22,265 bases of DNA from Rikenella microfusus (GTDB taxonomy: Bacteria > Bacteroidota > Bacteroidia > Bacteroidales > DYQK01), in NCBI GenBank assembly GCA_020719385.1, contig DYQK01000047.1, forward strand, positions 1,287-23,551, written 5' to 3'. This document shows, piece after piece, positions 1 through 6,396 of the stretch. The position numbers were made by a program, and so were the translations under genes. Below the pieces are notes generated by a model. That model made no database searches. It was not told the origin of the DNA and saw only the letters and a list, made by a program, of their open reading frames with translations. Each line of letters starts with the position of its first letter. Position 1 is the stretch's first letter.

Positions 1-890
1 GTCCAAAAACCTGTTGCAGGATATGGATTTTCTGCTTGCAAAAATGTTGAGTCTGCACAAATATCTCTATCTGCACCTGCAGAAATCAAAATTTGATTAT
101 TGACAACTGTAATGACATCTGTAGATTCGCAATTTTGATTAGTGACCGTCCATCGATAATTGTTAGTCCCAAAAGCGATATTCGAAACTCTTGTATTAAA
201 AAGTGTAGAATTTTCAAAAATTCCCGTTCCTCCATCAACAGTCCATTTTCCTTTTGCTGTGGGAGAAAATGTTTGAGGATTATTTGCCGCTAAGTGTGTC
301 CAATTATCACAAGTTATTTCGTCATTGCCTGCATGGGCAGGAACTTGACTTTTTAAAACTATCATTTCCGCAGAACTTGAACAAGTTTCAGACGAAACAG
401 TCCAAGTAAAAATATTTTCTCCAAAAGCTAAATTTCTGACAAGAGTGTTATAACTTGTCGGATTTTCAATAATGACTTGAGGAATATTGCAAGTCCAAAT
501 TCCTGTTGCACCCAAAGACGGCATTACTGCGTTAAGAATCGCAGAAGTGTCGCAAATATTTTGACTATTTCCTGCACTCGTAACGACAGAATTGCTTGTA
601 ATTGTTACCTCATCGAAAAGAGAGTTGACAGACCATCGAAAACGATTTGCTCCAACACCTAAACCTCGCACTTTTGTGTTGTAAAGTGTTGAATTTTCGA
701 AAATTCCTGCTCCTGCAATAACAGACCAAAAACCTGTTGCGGGGTAAGGATTATTTGCCTGCATAAAAGTCGAATCGGCACAAATTGCTTGGTCTTCACC
801 CGCATAGACAACTTGCGATTTTACTTTTTCACAAAATAAAGTGAAAAATATACTCAAAATGAGTAACGAAAAAATTTTTAAACGTTTCAT
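1..890 (-). CDS. Partial (3'-truncated by window edge) secreted protein built from ~82-aa tandem repeats; N-terminal signal peptide MKRLKIFSLLILSIFFTLFCEKVKSQ
   Basis: ATG at 888-890 (revcomp). I translated the minus strand by hand from 890 to 1 and found no stop. This ORF is absent from the six-frame track. The repeat unit (C.D.....A..P...TG.W....G.G.F.NST..NT.V..L..G.N.F.W.V) recurs 4 times, and the nucleotide repeat is visible too (e.g. 1-60 vs 721-790). Confidence 0.6.
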   Translation of the reverse strand, partial: MKRLKIFSLLILSIFFTLFCEKVKSQVVYAGEDQAICADSTFMQANNPYPATGFWSVIAGAGIFENSTLYNTKVRGLGVGANRFRWSVNSLFDEVTITSNSVVTSAGNSQNICDTSAILNAVMPSLGATGIWTCNIPQVIIENPTSYNTLVRNLAFGENIFTWTVSSETCSSSAEMIVLKSQVPAHAGNDEITCDNWTHLAANNPQTFSPTAKGKWTVDGGTGIFENSTLFNTRVSNIAFGTNNYRWTVTNQNCESTDVITVVNNQILISAGADRDICADSTFLQAENPYPATGFW

Positions 891-998: not shown

Positions 999-2768
999 TT
1001 AATGAATACAATTTGATTTTCTGATTTTTGCAAAATTAGTGTTTTTTGTCTGATTCCATTCGTCATATTTTTTTTGCAATTCGATGTCATTTGCCAAAAA
1101 AACGGTATAATGTTCTAACAATTCAACAATTTTTGAATCATCAGAAAATAAACTAATTTTGTTAAATTCCATTTTTTCGATGATTTTCTTAACTTTTTTT
1201 TCTGTATATTTGTCTAAACTTTTCAAATATTCAAAATCTTGTTTCCATTTTTGCGTGTAACCAATTTTTTCATAAAAAAAACGGTACACCAAATAATCAT
1301 TTGGCATGTACAACAATTCGATAAATTCTTCAAGATTTTTACCAAATGCTTTTTCGACAAATGCTCTTCGATGCCCGATTTTGCCATAAGTGGCATTTAA
1401 AATCGAATAAATTGCCCGAATAAATTTTTTATTCCAATATTTTCCATAATTATCTCTTTTTCGAGATTTATTTCCTTCTATTTCTAAATATTTCATTGGA
1501 AAAGAAAATATTTTTAAACCTAATTCTTCTCGCAAATCCGTATTTATTTTAATTCGGTGATAAAAATCTTCGGGTTTGTCAGTGAAATTGTAAAGTATAT
1601 AATTTGAAAAATCTAAAATTCCAAATTTCACACATAACCGAATTGCTTTTTCGTAATGTTTTCGAAATTTAATGTTGTCAAAAGCAATACGCACGGGACG
1701 AATTGCAATTTCACTTAATAATTTCGCTTTTTTTTCGTCGAGTAAACGGGCATCAATGCCTTGATTAAAATCAACATATCGATTTTTCCCATGTTTTTTT
1801 AAAAATTTTGCGTACCACTCAATAATTTGTGGAAATTCAGATAACAGTTTTAACAAAATCTCTTTTGTTTCAGAAAAATTTTCGATTTTTACATTAGAAT
1901 TTTCTAAATTATGTGTTTGCAAAAAAGAATTTAACTTCGTAGAATCGGTTTCTTTTAATTTTTTCAACAATAAATGTATGTGTTCGACAATTTTTCGTAC
2001 ATAAAATTTTTCATTACAATTTTTTTTGTTCAAATTATTAAAATATATCTCTAACCAATTCGGTTCAACATATTTTGCACCTTTATAAAAACCAATTTCT
2101 TTTATTTCCTGAATAATTTTTTCGAAATTTTCAGAATTTAAAACATTATTATCTAATAAAATTAAATCTTTTGGTTCACCAAAAGTATTTTTAATATATT
2201 CGAAATTATCTTTTAACGGAATATAATGTTTAAATGTCGGTTCAATAATTGGAACAGCACAAAATTTACATTTATTGCTACAGCCTCTTGTTGTGTAAGC
2301 AAAATATGCATCAGAAACAGGATATTTATACTCAATTTCTTCCAAAATTGAATAGTCAAGAGGTAAATTGTCAATAATTGTGTCGTTTTTATCTAAAATA
2401 TTTGGTTTATCAAGTAAACCAAAGTGAATATTAATTTTACTAAATAAATTTGCGTTAAGAATATTTTCAATTTCTTCTTTGTGTATCGAAGCAGTTATTC
2501 CGCCAACCCATAATTCTCCATCTTTGTTTAAAAGTTTTTGAGCATATTGAATTGTTTCGATAGTTTTTTTCCAATAAAATGTAAAAAGTGTCGAAACGCA
2601 AATTCTGTCATAAAAATTTTGTTTATCTTTTGAAAAATTTTTAATATCTCCTTTAAAAAAAGTAACCTTATCACCTAAATCTCGGTGATAAGTTGCAAGT
2701 TTCATTAATCCGATGGGCGGATATTTGTTTTTGTAACTGGGTTCTAATAATAAAACTTTACGATTCAT
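999..2768 (-). CDS. Large radical SAM protein (589 aa) with an N-terminal Rossmann/B12-binding-like region and a CX3CX2C cluster motif
   Basis: Motif TTRGCSNKCKFCAVP (C-x3-C-x2-C) near residue 160. N-terminus KVLLLEPSYKNKYPPIGLMKLATYHRDLGDKVTFF resembles B12-binding-domain radical SAM enzymes. Its start overlaps the upstream gene's stop by 1 nt at 2768. Confidence 0.8.
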   Translation of the reverse strand: MNRKVLLLEPSYKNKYPPIGLMKLATYHRDLGDKVTFFKGDIKNFSKDKQNFYDRICVSTLFTFYWKKTIETIQYAQKLLNKDGELWVGGITASIHKEEIENILNANLFSKINIHFGLLDKPNILDKNDTIIDNLPLDYSILEEIEYKYPVSDAYFAYTTRGCSNKCKFCAVPIIEPTFKHYIPLKDNFEYIKNTFGEPKDLILLDNNVLNSENFEKIIQEIKEIGFYKGAKYVEPNWLEIYFNNLNKKNCNEKFYVRKIVEHIHLLLKKLKETDSTKLNSFLQTHNLENSNVKIENFSETKEILLKLLSEFPQIIEWYAKFLKKHGKNRYVDFNQGIDARLLDEKKAKLLSEIAIRPVRIAFDNIKFRKHYEKAIRLCVKFGILDFSNYILYNFTDKPEDFYHRIKINTDLREELGLKIFSFPMKYLEIEGNKSRKRDNYGKYWNKKFIRAIYSILNATYGKIGHRRAFVEKAFGKNLEEFIELLYMPNDYLVYRFFYEKIGYTQKWKQDFEYLKSLDKYTEKKVKKIIEKMEFNKISLFSDDSKIVELLEHYTVFLANDIELQKKYDEWNQTKNTNFAKIRKSNCIH

Positions 2769-4383
2769 TATTTTAAAGTTTTTTTAATTTGAGATATCAA
2801 CTCCTCGCCGCAAAGTGATGGATATTTGCGAATTACATCAACTATTGTTGAAAGTTTAAATAACTTATTTTCAACAACATCATTTTCAATTTTTTTATTT
2901 TCGTTAATATTTGAAATTTCGTTGATTACTTTCTTGGTCTCTTCACTTTTTTTTTCCAAATGAACCGTCTTTTCAATTTCGATTTTTTTCGAAATTTCTT
3001 CTTTTCTCTTTTCTATGGCATTTTTTATTACAAAACTTCGAAGAGAATTTTCAGATTTTGCTTTTTTCATTTTATTTTCAATATCAATCTTTGTTTTTTC
3101 AACCTCTTTTTTCTTTTTTTGCATTTCATTATATTCTAATTTTTTTTGTTCTTCATCTTCAAATGAATTTTCTTTCTGTTTTTGCTCAAATTCAGAAATA
3201 GCAATTCTGGCTTTTTTTAATTTATTTATCAAAGAATTAACTGCAGCTTCATCTTGCGGAAGTTTACTATAACCATACAAAACTTCTCGCAATACTTTTT
3301 GAAATTGCTTAACGCAATATTCATTTTCAACAAAAAAATCTCTTCGTGCATTTGGAATTAATTCTTTGTTAAAAACAAATATTTCACCTATAAAATAATC
3401 GTTCCATCTATCTCGTTTAAAAAATTTATCTAAACTATTTTCGTCACCAATTTGAATATTGTGTTTTCGCAAACGAAATCCTCTTATTGCTTTATAACTA
3501 TTATGAACCATTTTACTCATAGAATCTCTTATCGCAAACCATCCATAAAACAAAATACTTCCTTCATTATCGTGTTTTTCAAAATATTCCAACATTTGTA
3601 TTTTATCAGATTTTTTTGTATCCTCTTCTTTTGTTGTCTCATCTATAACAGATAATTCATCTGTATAATTTTTGAATATTGGCAAATTATTTAGATGAAC
3701 ATTATATTCATATTCACTTATGGGTAAATTAAGTTCTTTTAACTTCGAATATATCTCATTTCTAAAACTAAAATTTGAAGAATAAGCAACAGGAGCAACT
3801 GTGGATAAATACAGTTTTATGCCTTCGACATCCAACAAATCATCATTAGTAACTTTTTCTAAAGTTACATAAAAATAATGTCGATTAATATCTTCTTCGA
3901 AAACTTTAAAATCTGTTACTTCACGTATGACTTCAACAGCTTCTCTTCTTGTTGTGGAATTATAAAGTATTTCTTTCAATTTTTTCGCATCCCAAATAAA
4001 AATACTTTTTTTCGCTTCACCTTTATAAGACGTTTCAAAAATTAATTTTTCACAACAAGCAAGTCCTCCGAGACGTCCAATACCTCGAAACCCTTTTTCT
4101 GTATTTCTATTTTTTCAGATTCAGCAATATTTCCTAACAAAGATTCAACATATTGCGACTCTATACCTGTACCATTGTCTCGAATTCTAATTTTTCGTTC
4201 ATTTTTAATTATTTCAACATGGATAGAACTTTCACTTTGCATTTGCAAAATATTCATTCTCACAGCTTTATCAATAGAATCAGCAGCGTTTTGTACATAT
4301 TCTCGAAAAATAATTCGTGGGTCTTCATACATTCCTGTAGTTAAAACTTCAATGACATTCTTGCCAATACGAGGATAACTCAT
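2768..4383 (-). pseudogene. GHKL-superfamily ATPase (Hsp90/MutL/MORC-like Bergerat fold) with a long K/E-rich C-terminal coiled coil. It is split into two ORFs (4042..4383 and 2768..3979, extendable in-frame upstream to ~4114) by a 1-nt frameshift in a homopolymer at ~4091-4098; intact length ~535 aa
   Basis: N-box REYVQNAADSIDKA and G1 box IRDNGTGI lie in the 113-aa ORF. The G2 box KGFRGIGRLGGLAC appears in the -1 frame immediately after the T5/C3 run, and that frame continues directly into the 403-aa ORF, which starts on TTG. Confidence 0.65.
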
Positions 4384-4409
4384 AATTTTTAATAAATTTA
4401 AAATTTTTG

Positions 4410-4440
4410 CAAAATTAATTTCTTTTTTCGAATTTACAAA
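4410..4440 (-). promoter_or_regulatory. Bacteroidetes-type promoter TTTG-N19-TAATTTTG upstream of the GHKL ATPase/radical SAM pair
   Basis: On the minus strand tattTTTGtaaattcgaaaaaagaaatTAATTTTG lies about 29 nt before the ATG at 4383. It matches the Bacteroidetes sigma-A consensus (-33 TTTG, -7 TAnnTTTG). Confidence 0.4.
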
Positions 4441-4458
4441 ATATTTTTCTAAAATTCC

Positions 4459-6396
4459 TCAAATCTCTCGACCCAAATGTTTAAAACCTAAAAATAAAAT
4501 CAATAAATCATTCCGAAGTTTATAATTTTTTGCATAATTCATATTTAATTTTTGTAAAATCTCACTCGAAAAGTCAATATTCGGCAAAGAATCGGCAACC
4601 GTCAACACGCCTTTTTTCAACCTCGGCAAATGAATCTCGTTAAAATGTGAAACTGAAACATAACCAACAAAAGTATTTTTACCTCTTAAAACGTTAAAAA
4701 TATTTAAAAAATATTTCTTTTTGTTAATTATTGCAAAAATGAAAATCGGAAAAAACAAAAACAAACACAAAGAAACCGAAATATCTAAAAACCTTTTTCG
4801 CAAACGATTCTGCGGCTTGCTTATCGCATTCATATTTAACTCGTAAAAATGCTCCTCCGCAAAAATCGAATGACTCCCAATTATCGCAACATTCTCTGGC
4901 GGAATAATTTTATACGCAACTTTACAATCCGCTAAATTCCACATATTCTCTATAATTTCTTGCGAAGACAAAGAATCAGCTGAAAAAATTATCTCATCAA
5001 TTTTATTCATTTTAACCATTTCGCGAAGCGAAGAAACTTGCGAAGGTGAAACAAAATCGACAACTTCAAAATGAATTTCGCTTTGTTTTAACAAATTTAA
5101 AATCTCATTTTGTTCAACATTTCCAACAATTAACAACCGTTTTTTTTGCGAAAACGAAAATTGATAATTTTGAAACTTTAAAAAATGTAAAAAAGTCCTA
5201 AAAAACATTAAAATTATCACAGAATAAGCAAAACCCAACAAAATCAATGCCCGCGAATAGCGATATTTCTCACTCAACAACGCATAAATTAACAAAATCG
5301 CTATTGTTCCCAATGTTAAACCTTTCAAAATATCAAAAAATTTGAACGGTTTTTCGTATCCCCGCGACAAATACAACGAAATTAACCAAATAAAAATGTA
5401 AAAAGGTACAACAATACTCCAATATTCTGTCGGATAAATATCATTTTTCCCAAATTTATACAATTCCCAAAACGGAGCAAGAAAAAAATATCCCAAAAAA
5501 ATAAACGTAGAATCGCAAAAAGGCAAAAATATTGCGTCAATAAAACGCTTCAAAAGCGAAAGAAAAGCCCGAAAATAAACCGCAAATTTTATGATATACG
5601 AAAAAATCTTTGCATTTTGCTGCGAAAAATGTTTTTTCGCAAAAATTAACATCGCTTCATAAAAAACTAAAACATAATTTACGCTATTTTTCTTCGTACT
5701 CTCGCCTTTGTAATGAATAATTGTCGTTTCTGGAAAATAAAAATTTTTGTAACCTGCTTTCAAAATCCGATAAGAAAGGTCAATATCTTCGCCGTACATA
5801 AAAAAAGTTTCGTCCAAAAGCCCGATTTTATCAAGCATTTCCTTACGCAAAAGCATAAACGCACCTGACAAAATTTCAACTTCGTTTGTCTTTTCTTTGT
5901 CCAAATAAGTTAAATGATATTTCCCAAAAGTTTTCGATTTCGGAAAAATTTTCGAGAAACCAAAAATTTTATAAAACGCAACCGCAGGAGTCGGCAAGGA
6001 ACGCTTCGATTCGGGCAAAAAATTCCCATTTCCATCAATCATTTTCACACCCAAACCGCCTGCCTCGGAATGAGAATCCATAAAATTTACAATTTTCACA
6101 AACGTTTCCTCCTGCACAACCGTATCAGGATTCAATAACAAAACATATTTGCCCTTTGCCAAACGAATCGCTTGATTATTTGCTCTCGAAAAACCCGTAT
6201 TTTGTTTATTTTCAATGAGATAGACCTCAGCAAATTTTTGTTTAACCATCGCACAAGAACCATCGGCAGAATTGTTATCAACGACAAAAATCTCTATCTC
6301 GGAAGGCAACAAATTCGCTGCTTTCCTCACAGAATAAAGGCATTGCTCCAAAAAATACTTCACATTATAATTGACAATTATCACCGAAAGTTTCAT
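4459..6396 (-). CDS. Family 2 glycosyltransferase domain fused to a polytopic membrane domain and a C-terminal Rossmann-like region
   Basis: N-terminus LSVIIVNYNVKYFLEQCL...VVDNNSADGS...NQAIRLAKGKYVLLLNPDT is a typical GT2 (GT-A) fold with the DxD region. The middle ~250 aa is strongly hydrophobic (multiple TM helices). The C-terminus has RLLIVGNVEQNEILNLL, a Rossmann-like start. Confidence 0.7.
   Translation of the reverse strand: MKLSVIIVNYNVKYFLEQCLYSVRKAANLLPSEIEIFVVDNNSADGSCAMVKQKFAEVYLIENKQNTGFSRANNQAIRLAKGKYVLLLNPDTVVQEETFVKIVNFMDSHSEAGGLGVKMIDGNGNFLPESKRSLPTPAVAFYKIFGFSKIFPKSKTFGKYHLTYLDKEKTNEVEILSGAFMLLRKEMLDKIGLLDETFFMYGEDIDLSYRILKAGYKNFYFPETTIIHYKGESTKKNSVNYVLVFYEAMLIFAKKHFSQQNAKIFSYIIKFAVYFRAFLSLLKRFIDAIFLPFCDSTFIFLGYFFLAPFWELYKFGKNDIYPTEYWSIVVPFYIFIWLISLYLSRGYEKPFKFFDILKGLTLGTIAILLIYALLSEKYRYSRALILLGFAYSVIILMFFRTFLHFLKFQNYQFSFSQKKRLLIVGNVEQNEILNLLKQSEIHFEVVDFVSPSQVSSLREMVKMNKIDEIIFSADSLSSQEIIENMWNLADCKVAYKIIPPENVAIIGSHSIFAEEHFYELNMNAISKPQNRLRKRFLDISVSLCLFLFFPIFIFAIINKKKYFLNIFNVLRGKNTFVGYVSVSHFNEIHLPRLKKGVLTVADSLPNIDFSSEILQKLNMNYAKNYKLRNDLLILFLGFKHLGREI

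What the first reader, a model, noticed from the sequence alone, without database searches (positions are those of the whole stretch)
4085..4117. The GHKL ATPase gene is interrupted by a 1-nt homopolymer frameshift (T5/C3 run at 4091-4098)
The 113-aa ORF reads ...EIQKKGF then runs out of frame. The -1 frame from the same spot reads KGFRGIGRLGGLACCEKLIFETSYKGEAKKSIFIWDAKK and runs straight into the 403-aa ORF, which uses a TTG start. Adding one A to the coding-strand A5 run, or one G to the G3 run, restores a single ~535-aa protein with the G2 box intact. This is a sequencing or assembly error, a recent inactivating mutation of a possibly toxic gene, or slippage-based phase variation.
Basis: seen in the sequence. 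Interest (0 to 1): 0.6.

Follow-up and report, generated by a model that had tools for sequence, protein, structure and literature searches.

The report
Frameshifted Hsp90-like ATPase gene allele

Summary
The gene is split as described: 113-aa and 403-aa ORFs that together match one ~515-aa Hsp90-like GHKL ATPase family. The lesion is not in the T5/C3 run at 4091-4098. A near-identical MAG (GCA_973320375.1) carries an intact 538-aa gene. Its only indel relative to the window is A7 instead of A6 on the coding strand (window + strand T6, 4110-4115), and it reads ...SEKNRNTEKGFRGIG. The family profile also favours that site by 6.9 bits.

The A6 allele is not an assembly error. It recurs in a JGI contig and in three Logan assemblies on at least three SNP haplotypes. 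At least two of those runs are Illumina HiSeq data from separate Frasassi cave biofilm samples. Two A6 haplotypes carry further, different frameshifts in the same gene. No other coding gene shows an indel across 20.6 kb.

Best reading: a recent, polymorphic inactivating deletion followed by early pseudogene decay. Phase variation is not excluded but is unsupported, because the tract is short, is not conserved in the family, and two OFF alleles carry second lesions. Programmed frameshifting is unsupported.

Context: relatives sit in a conserved, apparently undescribed four-gene cassette (unknown ~390 aa, HerA-like ATPase, GHKL, radical SAM). This lineage has only the last two genes.

The parts
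4110..4115 (-). The lesion. The coding-strand poly(A) tract is A6 here (+ strand T6). It is A7 in the intact allele, where it spans codons E90-K91-N92 (GAA AAA AAT).
   Evidence: Alignment of the window gene with L002 (GCA_973320375.1) shows a single 1-nt indel at this run plus one SNP. The full 20.6-kb comparison agrees. Coordinates were read directly.
4091..4098 (-). It is unchanged in the intact allele, where it encodes E96-K97-G98.
4042..4383 (-). The 5' fragment ORF of 113 aa. Residues 1-91 are authentic and carry the N box (E28, N32, D35) and the G1 box (D69-N-G-T-G73). Residues 92-113 (IEIQKKGFEVLDVSEDLLVVKN) are out of frame. The stop is at 4042-4044.
2768..4114 (-). The 3' part of the gene, in the frame offset by one base. 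It encodes residues 91-538 of the intact protein: the G2 box G98-F-R-G-I-G103, the Hsp90-like middle domain and a C-terminal coiled coil. The ORF finder lists only 2768..3979 (403 aa, TTG).
999..2768 (-). The partner radical-SAM-like gene (589 aa, CxxxCxxC at C163/C167/C170). Its ATG overlaps the GHKL stop (TAATG). It is intact and identical in every assembly that holds the whole gene.
   Evidence: A homologue lies downstream on the same strand in 75 of 79 family loci.
4209..4210 (-). Site of a second lesion in another A6 haplotype. The JGI contig TB_GS10_10DRAFT_10000472 has TTTT here instead of TT (+2 nt), which truncates the 5' fragment to 74 aa.
3332..3338 (-). Site of a second lesion in a third A6 haplotype. 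The Logan SRR1560849 contig has a run of 6 here instead of 7 (-1 nt).
4384..4458 (.). The 75-bp spacer between the GHKL start and a GT2 glycosyltransferase gene (4459..6396). In 78 of 79 family loci a HerA-like ATPase gene abuts the GHKL gene at this position. That gene is absent here.

Best explanation
The window carries a genuine, recent loss-of-function allele of an Hsp90-like GHKL ATPase gene.

Mechanism. One A was lost from an A7 tract on the coding strand (now A6; window + strand 4110-4115). The loss most likely arose by replication slippage (inferred). The deletion falls at codons 90-92, inside the ATP-lid loop between the G1 and G2 boxes of the Bergerat fold.

Consequence. Translation from the ATG yields 91 native residues plus 22 out-of-frame residues and stops at 4042. 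The remaining 447 codons, which include the G2 box, the Hsp90-like middle domain and the coiled coil, have no connection to the ATP-binding N-terminus. Neither product can form a nucleotide-binding site (inferred from motif positions and the model). Premature termination 1.27 kb upstream of the overlapping start of the radical-SAM partner should also reduce translational coupling to that gene (inferred, not shown).

Population picture. The allele is polymorphic in an uncultured low-GC Bacteroidota-like population (phylum inferred from gene content, not tested) from sulfidic cave biofilms. One MAG keeps the intact A7 gene. The A6 allele is the consensus in all the other assemblies found. In two sub-lineages it has acquired further frameshifts, which marks the start of pseudogene decay.
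For: Shown:
- The split ORFs and their frames.
- Single-ORF homologues cover both halves, and the Pfam match spans the junction.
- The intact 538-aa allele in GCA_973320375.1 differs only by A7 against A6 plus one SNP. It keeps 93 of 95 family-conserved positions, against a family median of 1 deviation.
- The A6 allele is present in JGI 3300000230 and in Logan SRR1559353, SRR404114 and SRR1560849.
- These represent at least three haplotypes, with 17-27 substitutions per 20.6 kb between the long ones.
- SRR1559353 and SRR1560849 are separate biofilm samples sequenced on Illumina HiSeq 2000 (PMC4288042).
- Secondary frameshifts lie at 4209-4210 (JGI contig) and 3332-3338 (SRR1560849), both on the A6 background.
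- In the 20.6-kb comparisons the only coding indels lie in this gene. The other two indels are intergenic. None of the other 133 coding homopolymers of 6 nt or more is affected. A rough chance estimate for four coding-blind events is (65/198)^4, about 0.012.
- The AF2 model (pLDDT 82.8) places residues 88-99 in the low-confidence lid loop rather than at a domain boundary.
- Two of 79 representative genomes carry nonsense-disrupted copies of the same family gene, so loss is recurrent.
Against: - No reads could be inspected, so within-sample heterogeneity at the tract is unknown.
- The origin of the intact-allele MAG is unknown. Its A7 could in principle come from a different strain, or from frameshift-aware polishing.
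- The sample identity of SRR404114, and which SRA run underlies the JGI assembly, are unknown. The number of truly independent data sets is therefore at least 2-3, not necessarily 5.
- The radical-SAM partner is still intact and identical in all assemblies, so there is no sign yet of decay of the whole module.
- Coexistence of ON and OFF tract lengths on near-identical backgrounds is also what phase variation would produce.
Confidence: 0.8

Rival explanations
1. Phase variation. The A7/A6 tract is a reversible slipped-strand switch that turns the GHKL gene, and by polarity its radical-SAM partner, ON and OFF in the population.
For: Both tract lengths exist on nearly identical backgrounds, with 1 SNP across the 1.6-kb gene. 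The gene belongs to a cassette with defence-like neighbours: a HerA-like ATPase and inserted AriA/NsnB-like ABC ATPases. From general knowledge, defence and restriction genes are classic phase-variable loci.
Against: - The tract is only 7 nt. The window holds 82 homopolymers of 7 nt or more, 59 of them coding, so this tract is not special.
- Homologues have 3-7 nt at the site, never 8 or more, and the run follows simply from the conserved T/S-K-K/N codons.
- Two of the A6 haplotypes carry additional frameshifts that a single tract reversion could not rescue.
- Every Illumina assembly found has A6 as consensus, and no Logan contig encodes the intact protein.
Confidence: 0.1
2. Sequencing or assembly artefact. 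The true sequence is A7 and the gene is intact in the organism.
For: Homopolymers are the commonest site of indel errors. One assembly of a near-identical genome shows A7.
Against: - The same A6 appears in five assemblies made by different pipelines (the window's source, JGI SOAPdenovo/Newbler, Logan). These cover at least three SNP haplotypes and at least two separate Illumina HiSeq samples.
- All other coding homopolymers in 20.6 kb agree between assemblies.
- Indels are confined to intergenic DNA and to this one gene. That pattern fits selection, not a coding-blind error process.
Confidence: 0.05
3. Recoding. A full-length protein is still made from the A6 template. The routes would be -1 ribosomal slippage (P-site tRNA-Lys on A_AAA_A at 4110-4116, or the dnaX-like G_AAA_AAG at 4093-4099) or transcriptional slippage on the A tract.
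For: A -1 slip of tRNA-Lys within the A6 run would give exactly the wild-type sequence EKNRNTEK. AAA_AAG lies in the zero frame 12 nt downstream (sequence). Low-level slippage on A runs is known from the literature (my own knowledge).
Against: - There is no canonical X_XXY_YYZ heptamer at the A6 run.
- The 80 nt downstream fold no better than shuffles (z +0.54; 142 of 200 shuffles fold at least as well).
- Homologues are single ORFs: none of the 79 representative loci has a frameshift (two have in-frame stops), and the same species has an intact allele.
- Second frameshifts accumulate on the A6 background.
- A6 is far shorter than the tracts of about 9 nt or more that are linked to efficient transcriptional slippage (my own knowledge).
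Confidence: 0.04

Closest known systems
Frameshift pseudogenes and loss-of-function polymorphisms caused by homopolymer slippage in bacterial accessory or defence genes
   Same: A one-base loss in a mononucleotide run breaks an otherwise conserved ORF. Intact and broken alleles coexist in one population. Further lesions follow on the broken allele. Independent nonsense alleles occur in other species of the same family (L081, L025).
   Different: Nothing essential differs. This is a new instance in an uncharacterised gene family.
Hsp90 family (HtpG, TRAP1, GRP94)
   Same: The N-terminal Bergerat-fold ATPase carries the N, G1 and G2 boxes. The model aligns to the N-terminal and middle domains of TRAP1, GRP94 and Hsp90 over about 420 columns (Foldseek E 2e-15, TM 0.44). 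The sequence match to Hsp90 N-domains gives E 6e-5.
   Different: Identity is only 12-16%. The score is far below the NCBIfam HtpG cut-off (44 against 371 bits). The C-terminus is a long K/E-rich coiled coil (helices 355-465, 495-537), not recognisably the Hsp90 C-terminal dimerisation domain. The gene is encoded in a HerA-like/radical-SAM cassette. It is not a chaperone orthologue.
Phase-variable (contingency) loci with homopolymer tracts, such as restriction-modification mod/res genes of Haemophilus, Helicobacter and Campylobacter
   Same: A change in homopolymer length inside the ORF toggles the reading frame. Both lengths are seen in closely related genomes.
   Different: The tract is 7/6 nt rather than the roughly 8-9 nt or more typical of such loci (my own knowledge). 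It is not conserved in homologues. OFF alleles carry additional lesions. No within-sample heterogeneity has been shown.
dnaX-type and IS-type programmed -1 ribosomal frameshifting (A_AAA_AAG)
   Different: The first base of the heptamer is G. There is no stimulatory structure. The frameshift is not conserved, and the intact allele shows that the ancestral gene is a plain single ORF.
HerA-containing defence systems (SIR2-HerA, DUF4297-HerA, MADS mad8)
   Same: The family's canonical cassette has a ~555-aa protein with weak HerA and mad8 similarity (PADLOC E 6e-8 and 2e-4) next to putative effector genes. Some loci have inserted AriA/NsnB-like ABC ATPases (E 7e-67).
   Different: The GHKL, the radical-SAM protein and the ~390-aa first gene match no PADLOC, Pfam (above cut-off) or NCBIfam model. 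The window lineage lacks the HerA-like gene altogether.

Membership tests
GHKL (Bergerat-fold) ATPase superfamily | N box (ExxxNAxD), G1 box (DxGxG) and G2 box (GxxGxG) in one polypeptide, with a Pfam HATPase_c/HATPase_c_3 match above the gathering score | tested here: met
   This holds for the repaired or intact sequence. E28, N32, D35, D69, G73 and G98-G103 are invariant in 45 sequences. HATPase_c_3 scores 38.7 bits against a cut-off of 25. As encoded in the window, the N and G1 boxes (113-aa ORF) and the G2 box (second frame) lie on different products.
Hsp90/HtpG chaperone family | N-terminal ATPase plus middle domain fold | tested here: met
   Foldseek against PDB returns TRAP1, GRP94, Hsp90 and HtpG at E 2e-15 to 1e-13 over about 420 aligned columns.
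Hsp90/HtpG chaperone family | Orthology by sequence (NCBIfam HtpG equivalog cut-off) and the Hsp90 C-terminal dimerisation domain | tested here: not met
   NF003555 scores 44.1 bits against a cut-off of 371, and NF010683 scores 48 against 455. The C-terminal ~185 residues are modelled as long helices or a coiled coil.
Frameshift pseudogene allele | Homologues are single uninterrupted ORFs, and the break is not at a domain boundary | tested here: met
   The 119 other listed homologues are single proteins, nearly all 476-531 aa. The break lies in the lid loop, residues 88-99 of the model.
Frameshift pseudogene allele | The lesion is reproduced in independent sequence data | tested here: met
   A6 is found in the JGI contig and in three Logan assemblies, on at least three haplotypes. 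Two runs are documented as separate Illumina samples. Reads themselves were not inspected.
Frameshift pseudogene allele | Relaxed constraint, seen as additional disabling mutations | tested here: met
   There is a +2 nt lesion at 4209-4210 in the JGI haplotype and a -1 nt lesion at 3332-3338 in the SRR1560849 haplotype. No coding indel occurs in any other gene.
Phase-variable contingency locus | A hypermutable repeat tract of sufficient length, conserved or expanded among homologues | tested here: not met
   The tract is 7/6 nt. The homologous site in 91 family copies holds 3-7 nt. The window has 82 other runs of 7 nt or more.
Phase-variable contingency locus | Several tract lengths within one population or sample | not testable with these tools
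   Both lengths occur across assemblies, but read-level data are not available here.
Programmed -1 ribosomal frameshift site | A slippery heptamer plus a downstream stimulatory structure, conserved among homologues | tested here: not met
   The only heptamer is the non-canonical G_AAA_AAG. The downstream fold has z +0.54. Homologues and the intact allele of the same species are single ORFs.
Four-gene cassette (unknown ~390 aa + HerA-like + GHKL + radical SAM) | The ~390-aa first gene and the HerA-like ATPase gene lie directly upstream of the GHKL gene | tested here: not met
   These genes are present in 75 of 79 and 78 of 79 family loci. tblastn finds no hit in the window or in the near-identical contigs, and the upstream neighbour is a GT2 gene.
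Four-gene cassette (unknown ~390 aa + HerA-like + GHKL + radical SAM) | A radical-SAM-like gene lies directly downstream of the GHKL gene on the same strand | tested here: met
   The gene is at 999..2768(-) and overlaps the GHKL stop. The arrangement holds in 75 of 79 family loci.
Radical SAM superfamily (partner gene) | A CxxxCxxC cluster motif and a Pfam Radical_SAM match | tested here: inconclusive
   C163, C167 and C170 are conserved in 66 sequences. Pfam Radical_SAM scores 19.6 bits against a cut-off of 29.5, and B12-binding scores 19.1 against 32.1. No PDB relative was found by sequence.

The most novel reading that the evidence does not exclude
The A7/A6 tract may be a working, low-frequency ON/OFF switch. 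It would sit in a stripped-down two-gene derivative (Hsp90-like GHKL plus radical SAM) of a widespread four-gene HerA-like/GHKL/radical-SAM conflict system that appears undescribed. On this reading, the cave population keeps both states because the module is costly, or toxic, when ON.
Probability: 0.08. Interest if true: 0.5.

Novelty: new member of a known kind. Interest (0 to 1): 0.22.

Why it matters
The frameshift itself matters little. It is a textbook homopolymer deletion that creates a null allele, and it is useful mainly as an annotation correction. The gene should be annotated as a pseudogene allele of a 538-aa protein, with the lesion at 4110-4115.

Two side results are of more use:
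- A natural intact/broken allele pair with secondary decay gives a clean example of ongoing loss of an accessory gene in a wild population.
- The gene family belongs to a very widespread cassette, with more than 588 relatives among species-representative genomes across many phyla. The cassette comprises a ~390-aa protein, a HerA-like ATPase, an Hsp90-like GHKL and a radical-SAM protein. It matches no PADLOC or NCBIfam model, and I found no paper on it. It may be a candidate defence system worth testing.

Tried and rejected
- A DNA pattern scan of metagenome contigs across both homopolymer runs returned 0 hits. That collection does not hold these samples, so it gave no allele census.
- PADLOC on the GHKL and radical-SAM proteins returned nothing. 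NCBIfam gave nothing above cut-offs. Pfam and PADLOC on the ~390-aa first gene returned nothing.
- Literature searches found no paper on such a system. The terms combined radical SAM with GHKL, HATPase_c_3, MORC, HSP90 or HerA, plus defence. The one promising hit, the Dnd reappraisal paper, was irrelevant.
- The radical-SAM protein has no significant relative in the PDB by sequence.
- I looked for other frame-split GHKL copies among the 79 representative loci and found none. Two have in-frame stops.
- I considered whether the split could be a natural two-subunit arrangement. I rejected this because the break lies inside the Bergerat fold, between G1 and G2.
I rejected it on the intact allele and on the HMM score.
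- The organism name of GCA_973320375.1 could not be obtained. The source gives no names, and the genome is not among the GTDB representatives returned.

Full report
OBSERVATION

On the minus strand, ORF 4042..4383 (113 aa, ATG) ends ...IAESEKIEIQKKGFEVLDVSEDLLVVKN*. The frame offset by one base reads KNRNTEKGFRGIGRLGGLACCEKLIFETSYKGEAKKSIFIWDAKK and continues into ORF 2768..3979 (403 aa, listed from a TTG).

Inserting one base there gives a 538-aa ORF. Its Pfam HATPase_c_3 match (E 1.3e-9, 38.7 bits against a cut-off of 25) spans the junction at residues 28-148. A search of 5.8 billion proteins found 1,697 relatives. The 119 other listed hits are single proteins, nearly all 476-531 aa (one of 456 aa, one of 594 aa), 38-49% identical, and they cover both halves. 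The split of one gene into two ORFs by a missing base is therefore real.

WHERE THE LESION IS

ORF logic alone allows the missing base anywhere from 4045 to 4115. The second frame is open from 4114, and its stop TGA occupies 4117-4115.

The family consensus around the site is IAQSTKxRxxDKGFRGIGRLGG. Repair at the A6 run gives SEKNRNTEKGFRG, which fits the KxR..[DE]K pattern. A profile built from 17 homologues scores these 541.1 and 534.2 bits.

The question is settled by a near-identical genome. NCBI MAG GCA_973320375.1 (contig CCWSPU010000012.1) encodes an intact 538-aa protein. Its gene differs from the window's by exactly one extra A in that upstream run (A7 against A6) and one substitution, K to M in the coiled coil. 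The A5G3 run is identical in both.

IS IT AN ARTEFACT?

The window is not the only sequence with A6.
- The JGI contig 3300000230 TB_GS10_10DRAFT_10000472 has A6 plus a second lesion, TT to TTTT at 4209-4210. This explains its 74-aa gene call. It also shows 27 substitutions over 20.6 kb.
- Logan assemblies of SRR404114 and SRR1559353 carry a gene identical to the window's.
- A Logan contig of SRR1560849 has A6, two SNPs and a third lesion, a run of 7 shortened to 6 at 3332-3338.

According to Hamilton et al. 2015 (PMC4288042), SRR1559353 and SRR1560849 are two of eight separate Frasassi/Acquasanta sulfidic-cave biofilm metagenomes, sequenced on Illumina HiSeq 2000. The paper lists GS10-10 as Grotta Sulfurea, June 2010. 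This platform has low homopolymer error at 6-7 nt (my own knowledge).

Across 20.6 kb, the window differs from the intact-allele MAG by 17 substitutions and 3 indels: the A tract and two intergenic sites. It differs from the JGI contig by 27 substitutions and 2 indel events: 4209 in this gene and one intergenic site. None of the other 133 coding homopolymers of 6 nt or more differs. Indels confined to intergenic DNA and one gene are the signature of selection acting on real mutations, not of a coding-blind error process. A rough chance estimate is (65/198)^4, about 0.012. With three long haplotypes, the pattern is compatible with a single A7-to-A6 event in the ancestor of the window and JGI haplotypes.

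WHAT THE GENE IS

The intact allele keeps 93 of 95 positions that are at least 95% conserved in 44 relatives. The family median is 1 deviation. The gene therefore looked functional until the deletion.

An AlphaFold2 model (pLDDT 82.8, pTM 0.76) has its main low-confidence segment in the ATPase region at residues 88-99. This is the ATP-lid loop between G1 (D69-G73) and G2 (G98-G103), exactly where the frameshift falls. Foldseek matches the N-terminal and middle domains of TRAP1, GRP94, Hsp90 and HtpG (E 2e-15, about 420 columns, 12-16% identity). Sequence-level matches are limited to the Hsp90 N-domain and lie far below the NCBIfam HtpG cut-offs. The C-terminus is a long coiled coil.

The protein is an Hsp90-like GHKL ATPase, not an HtpG orthologue. 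The break is inside the ATPase fold. The 113-aa product has the N and G1 boxes only, and the rest has G2 without them. Neither is expected to bind ATP (inference).

CONTEXT

The downstream gene 999..2768(-) overlaps the GHKL stop (TAATG). It is a radical-SAM-like protein with conserved CxxxCxxC, sub-threshold Radical_SAM and B12-binding hits, and 120 of 127 family-conserved positions kept. It is the shortest of the 66 family members aligned.

In species-representative genomes the GHKL family has at least 588 relatives in many phyla. Counts in the 79 loci fetched:
- The radical-SAM gene follows on the same strand in 75 loci.
- A highly conserved HerA-like ATPase of ~555 aa lies directly upstream in 78 loci. 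It is 65-83% identical across phyla in the loci listed and shows weak PADLOC mad8 and HerA hits.
- A ~390-aa gene with no family match precedes that in 75 loci.
- About 24 loci carry inserted modules: an AriA/NsnB-like ABC ATPase plus a ~280-aa protein plus a second GHKL, or another HATPase_c_3 protein plus a ~330-aa protein.

The nearest metagenomic relatives also sit in multi-gene cassettes. The window lineage has neither upstream gene. A GT2 glycosyltransferase gene lies 75 bp upstream. The locus is therefore an atypical two-gene version of a four-gene cassette.

The cassette matches no PADLOC or NCBIfam model, and I found no paper on it. Two of the 79 representative genomes have nonsense-disrupted GHKL copies: Parabacteroides chinchillae DSM 29073 and a Mucilaginibacter MAG. 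Loss of this gene is recurrent.

RIVALS

Phase variation. This would explain the coexistence of A7 and A6 on near-identical backgrounds. Against it:
- The tract is short.
- It is one of 82 runs of 7 nt or more in the window.
- It is not conserved or expanded in 91 family copies, which have 3-7 nt.
- Two OFF haplotypes carry additional frameshifts.
It cannot be excluded without reads.

Programmed or fortuitous recoding. A -1 slip of tRNA-Lys in the A6 run would restore the native sequence, and AAA_AAG lies 12 nt downstream. Against it:
- The 80 nt downstream do not fold better than shuffles (z +0.54).
- The shift is not conserved in homologues.
- An intact allele exists in the same species.

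Artefact. This is disfavoured by the evidence given under "Is it an artefact?" above.

VERDICT

The gene is a real, recent, polymorphic loss-of-function allele caused by a 1-nt deletion in an A7 tract, and early pseudogene decay is visible in sister haplotypes. The phenomenon is ordinary. Of its three interpretations, the middle one (a recent inactivating mutation) is supported.

The most interesting by-product is the uncharacterised HerA-like/GHKL/radical-SAM cassette to which the gene belongs.

Noticed in passing
L007 3134-9400 and 78 other loci (L008-L085); window 999-4383 holds only the last two genes: There is a widespread conserved four-gene cassette: an unknown ~390-aa protein, a HerA-like ATPase of ~555 aa (65-83% identical across phyla), an Hsp90-like GHKL of ~515 aa and a radical-SAM protein of ~640 aa. 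It matches no PADLOC or NCBIfam model, and I found no paper on it. About 24 loci carry inserted AriA/NsnB-like ABC ATPase modules or a second GHKL. It is a candidate new defence or conflict system.
   Followed up: partly
window 7840-10308 (+): An 822-aa bacterial homologue of the eukaryotic major vault protein (Pfam MVP_shoulder E 1.5e-27, Vault_3 E 6.7e-8, weak Band_7). It is conserved in all near-identical contigs.
   Followed up: no
window 498-725, inside a repeat-protein gene that runs 890..1 (-) and off the window: Substitutions and small indels cluster tightly here between the window, the MAG (L002) and the SRR1559353 contig (L004), while flanking DNA is identical. The protein has tandem ~90-aa repeats (AGEDQAICADSTF...PYPATGFW). 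The cause is likely recombination or gene conversion between repeats, or assembly ambiguity.
   Followed up: no
window 17781-20784 (-): A small defence islet lies between the S46 peptidase gene and clpX. It holds an R.HinP1I-like restriction enzyme (252 aa), an N6/N4 DNA methyltransferase (260 aa), an AAA_15/AAA_21 ATPase (314 aa, weak MADS mad3 and PtuA hits) and a 125-aa ORF. In the MAG a NACHT-domain gene starts just beyond the window's right end (L087 20664-).
   Followed up: no
L081 5977-7566 (Parabacteroides chinchillae DSM 29073); L025 5950-7524 (Mucilaginibacter MAG): Homologous GHKL genes are interrupted by in-frame stop codons (...SSSFIFR*KIND... and ...GGMAY*DQLIF..., the latter replacing the invariant Cys). 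These are independent pseudogenisations within the same family.
   Followed up: partly
window 7770 and 15490 (intergenic); 10860-10861: These are the only non-GHKL indels between near-identical assemblies, and both are intergenic. The two adjacent SNPs at 10860-10861 lie just downstream of the hibernation-factor gene (10473-10853), which callers annotate as either 126 or 98 aa.
   Followed up: no
window 11096-11576 and 12885-12958 (+): A tRNA cluster Thr-Tyr-Tyr-Gly-Thr lies upstream of tuf (11633-12820), and tRNA-Trp lies downstream of it.
   Followed up: no
window 999-2768 (-): The radical-SAM partner is the shortest of 66 family members (589 aa against a median of about 640). It lacks a segment of roughly 50 aa near residue 48 and deviates at 7 of 127 conserved positions. 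This may be mild degeneration or a distinct subtype.
   Followed up: partly
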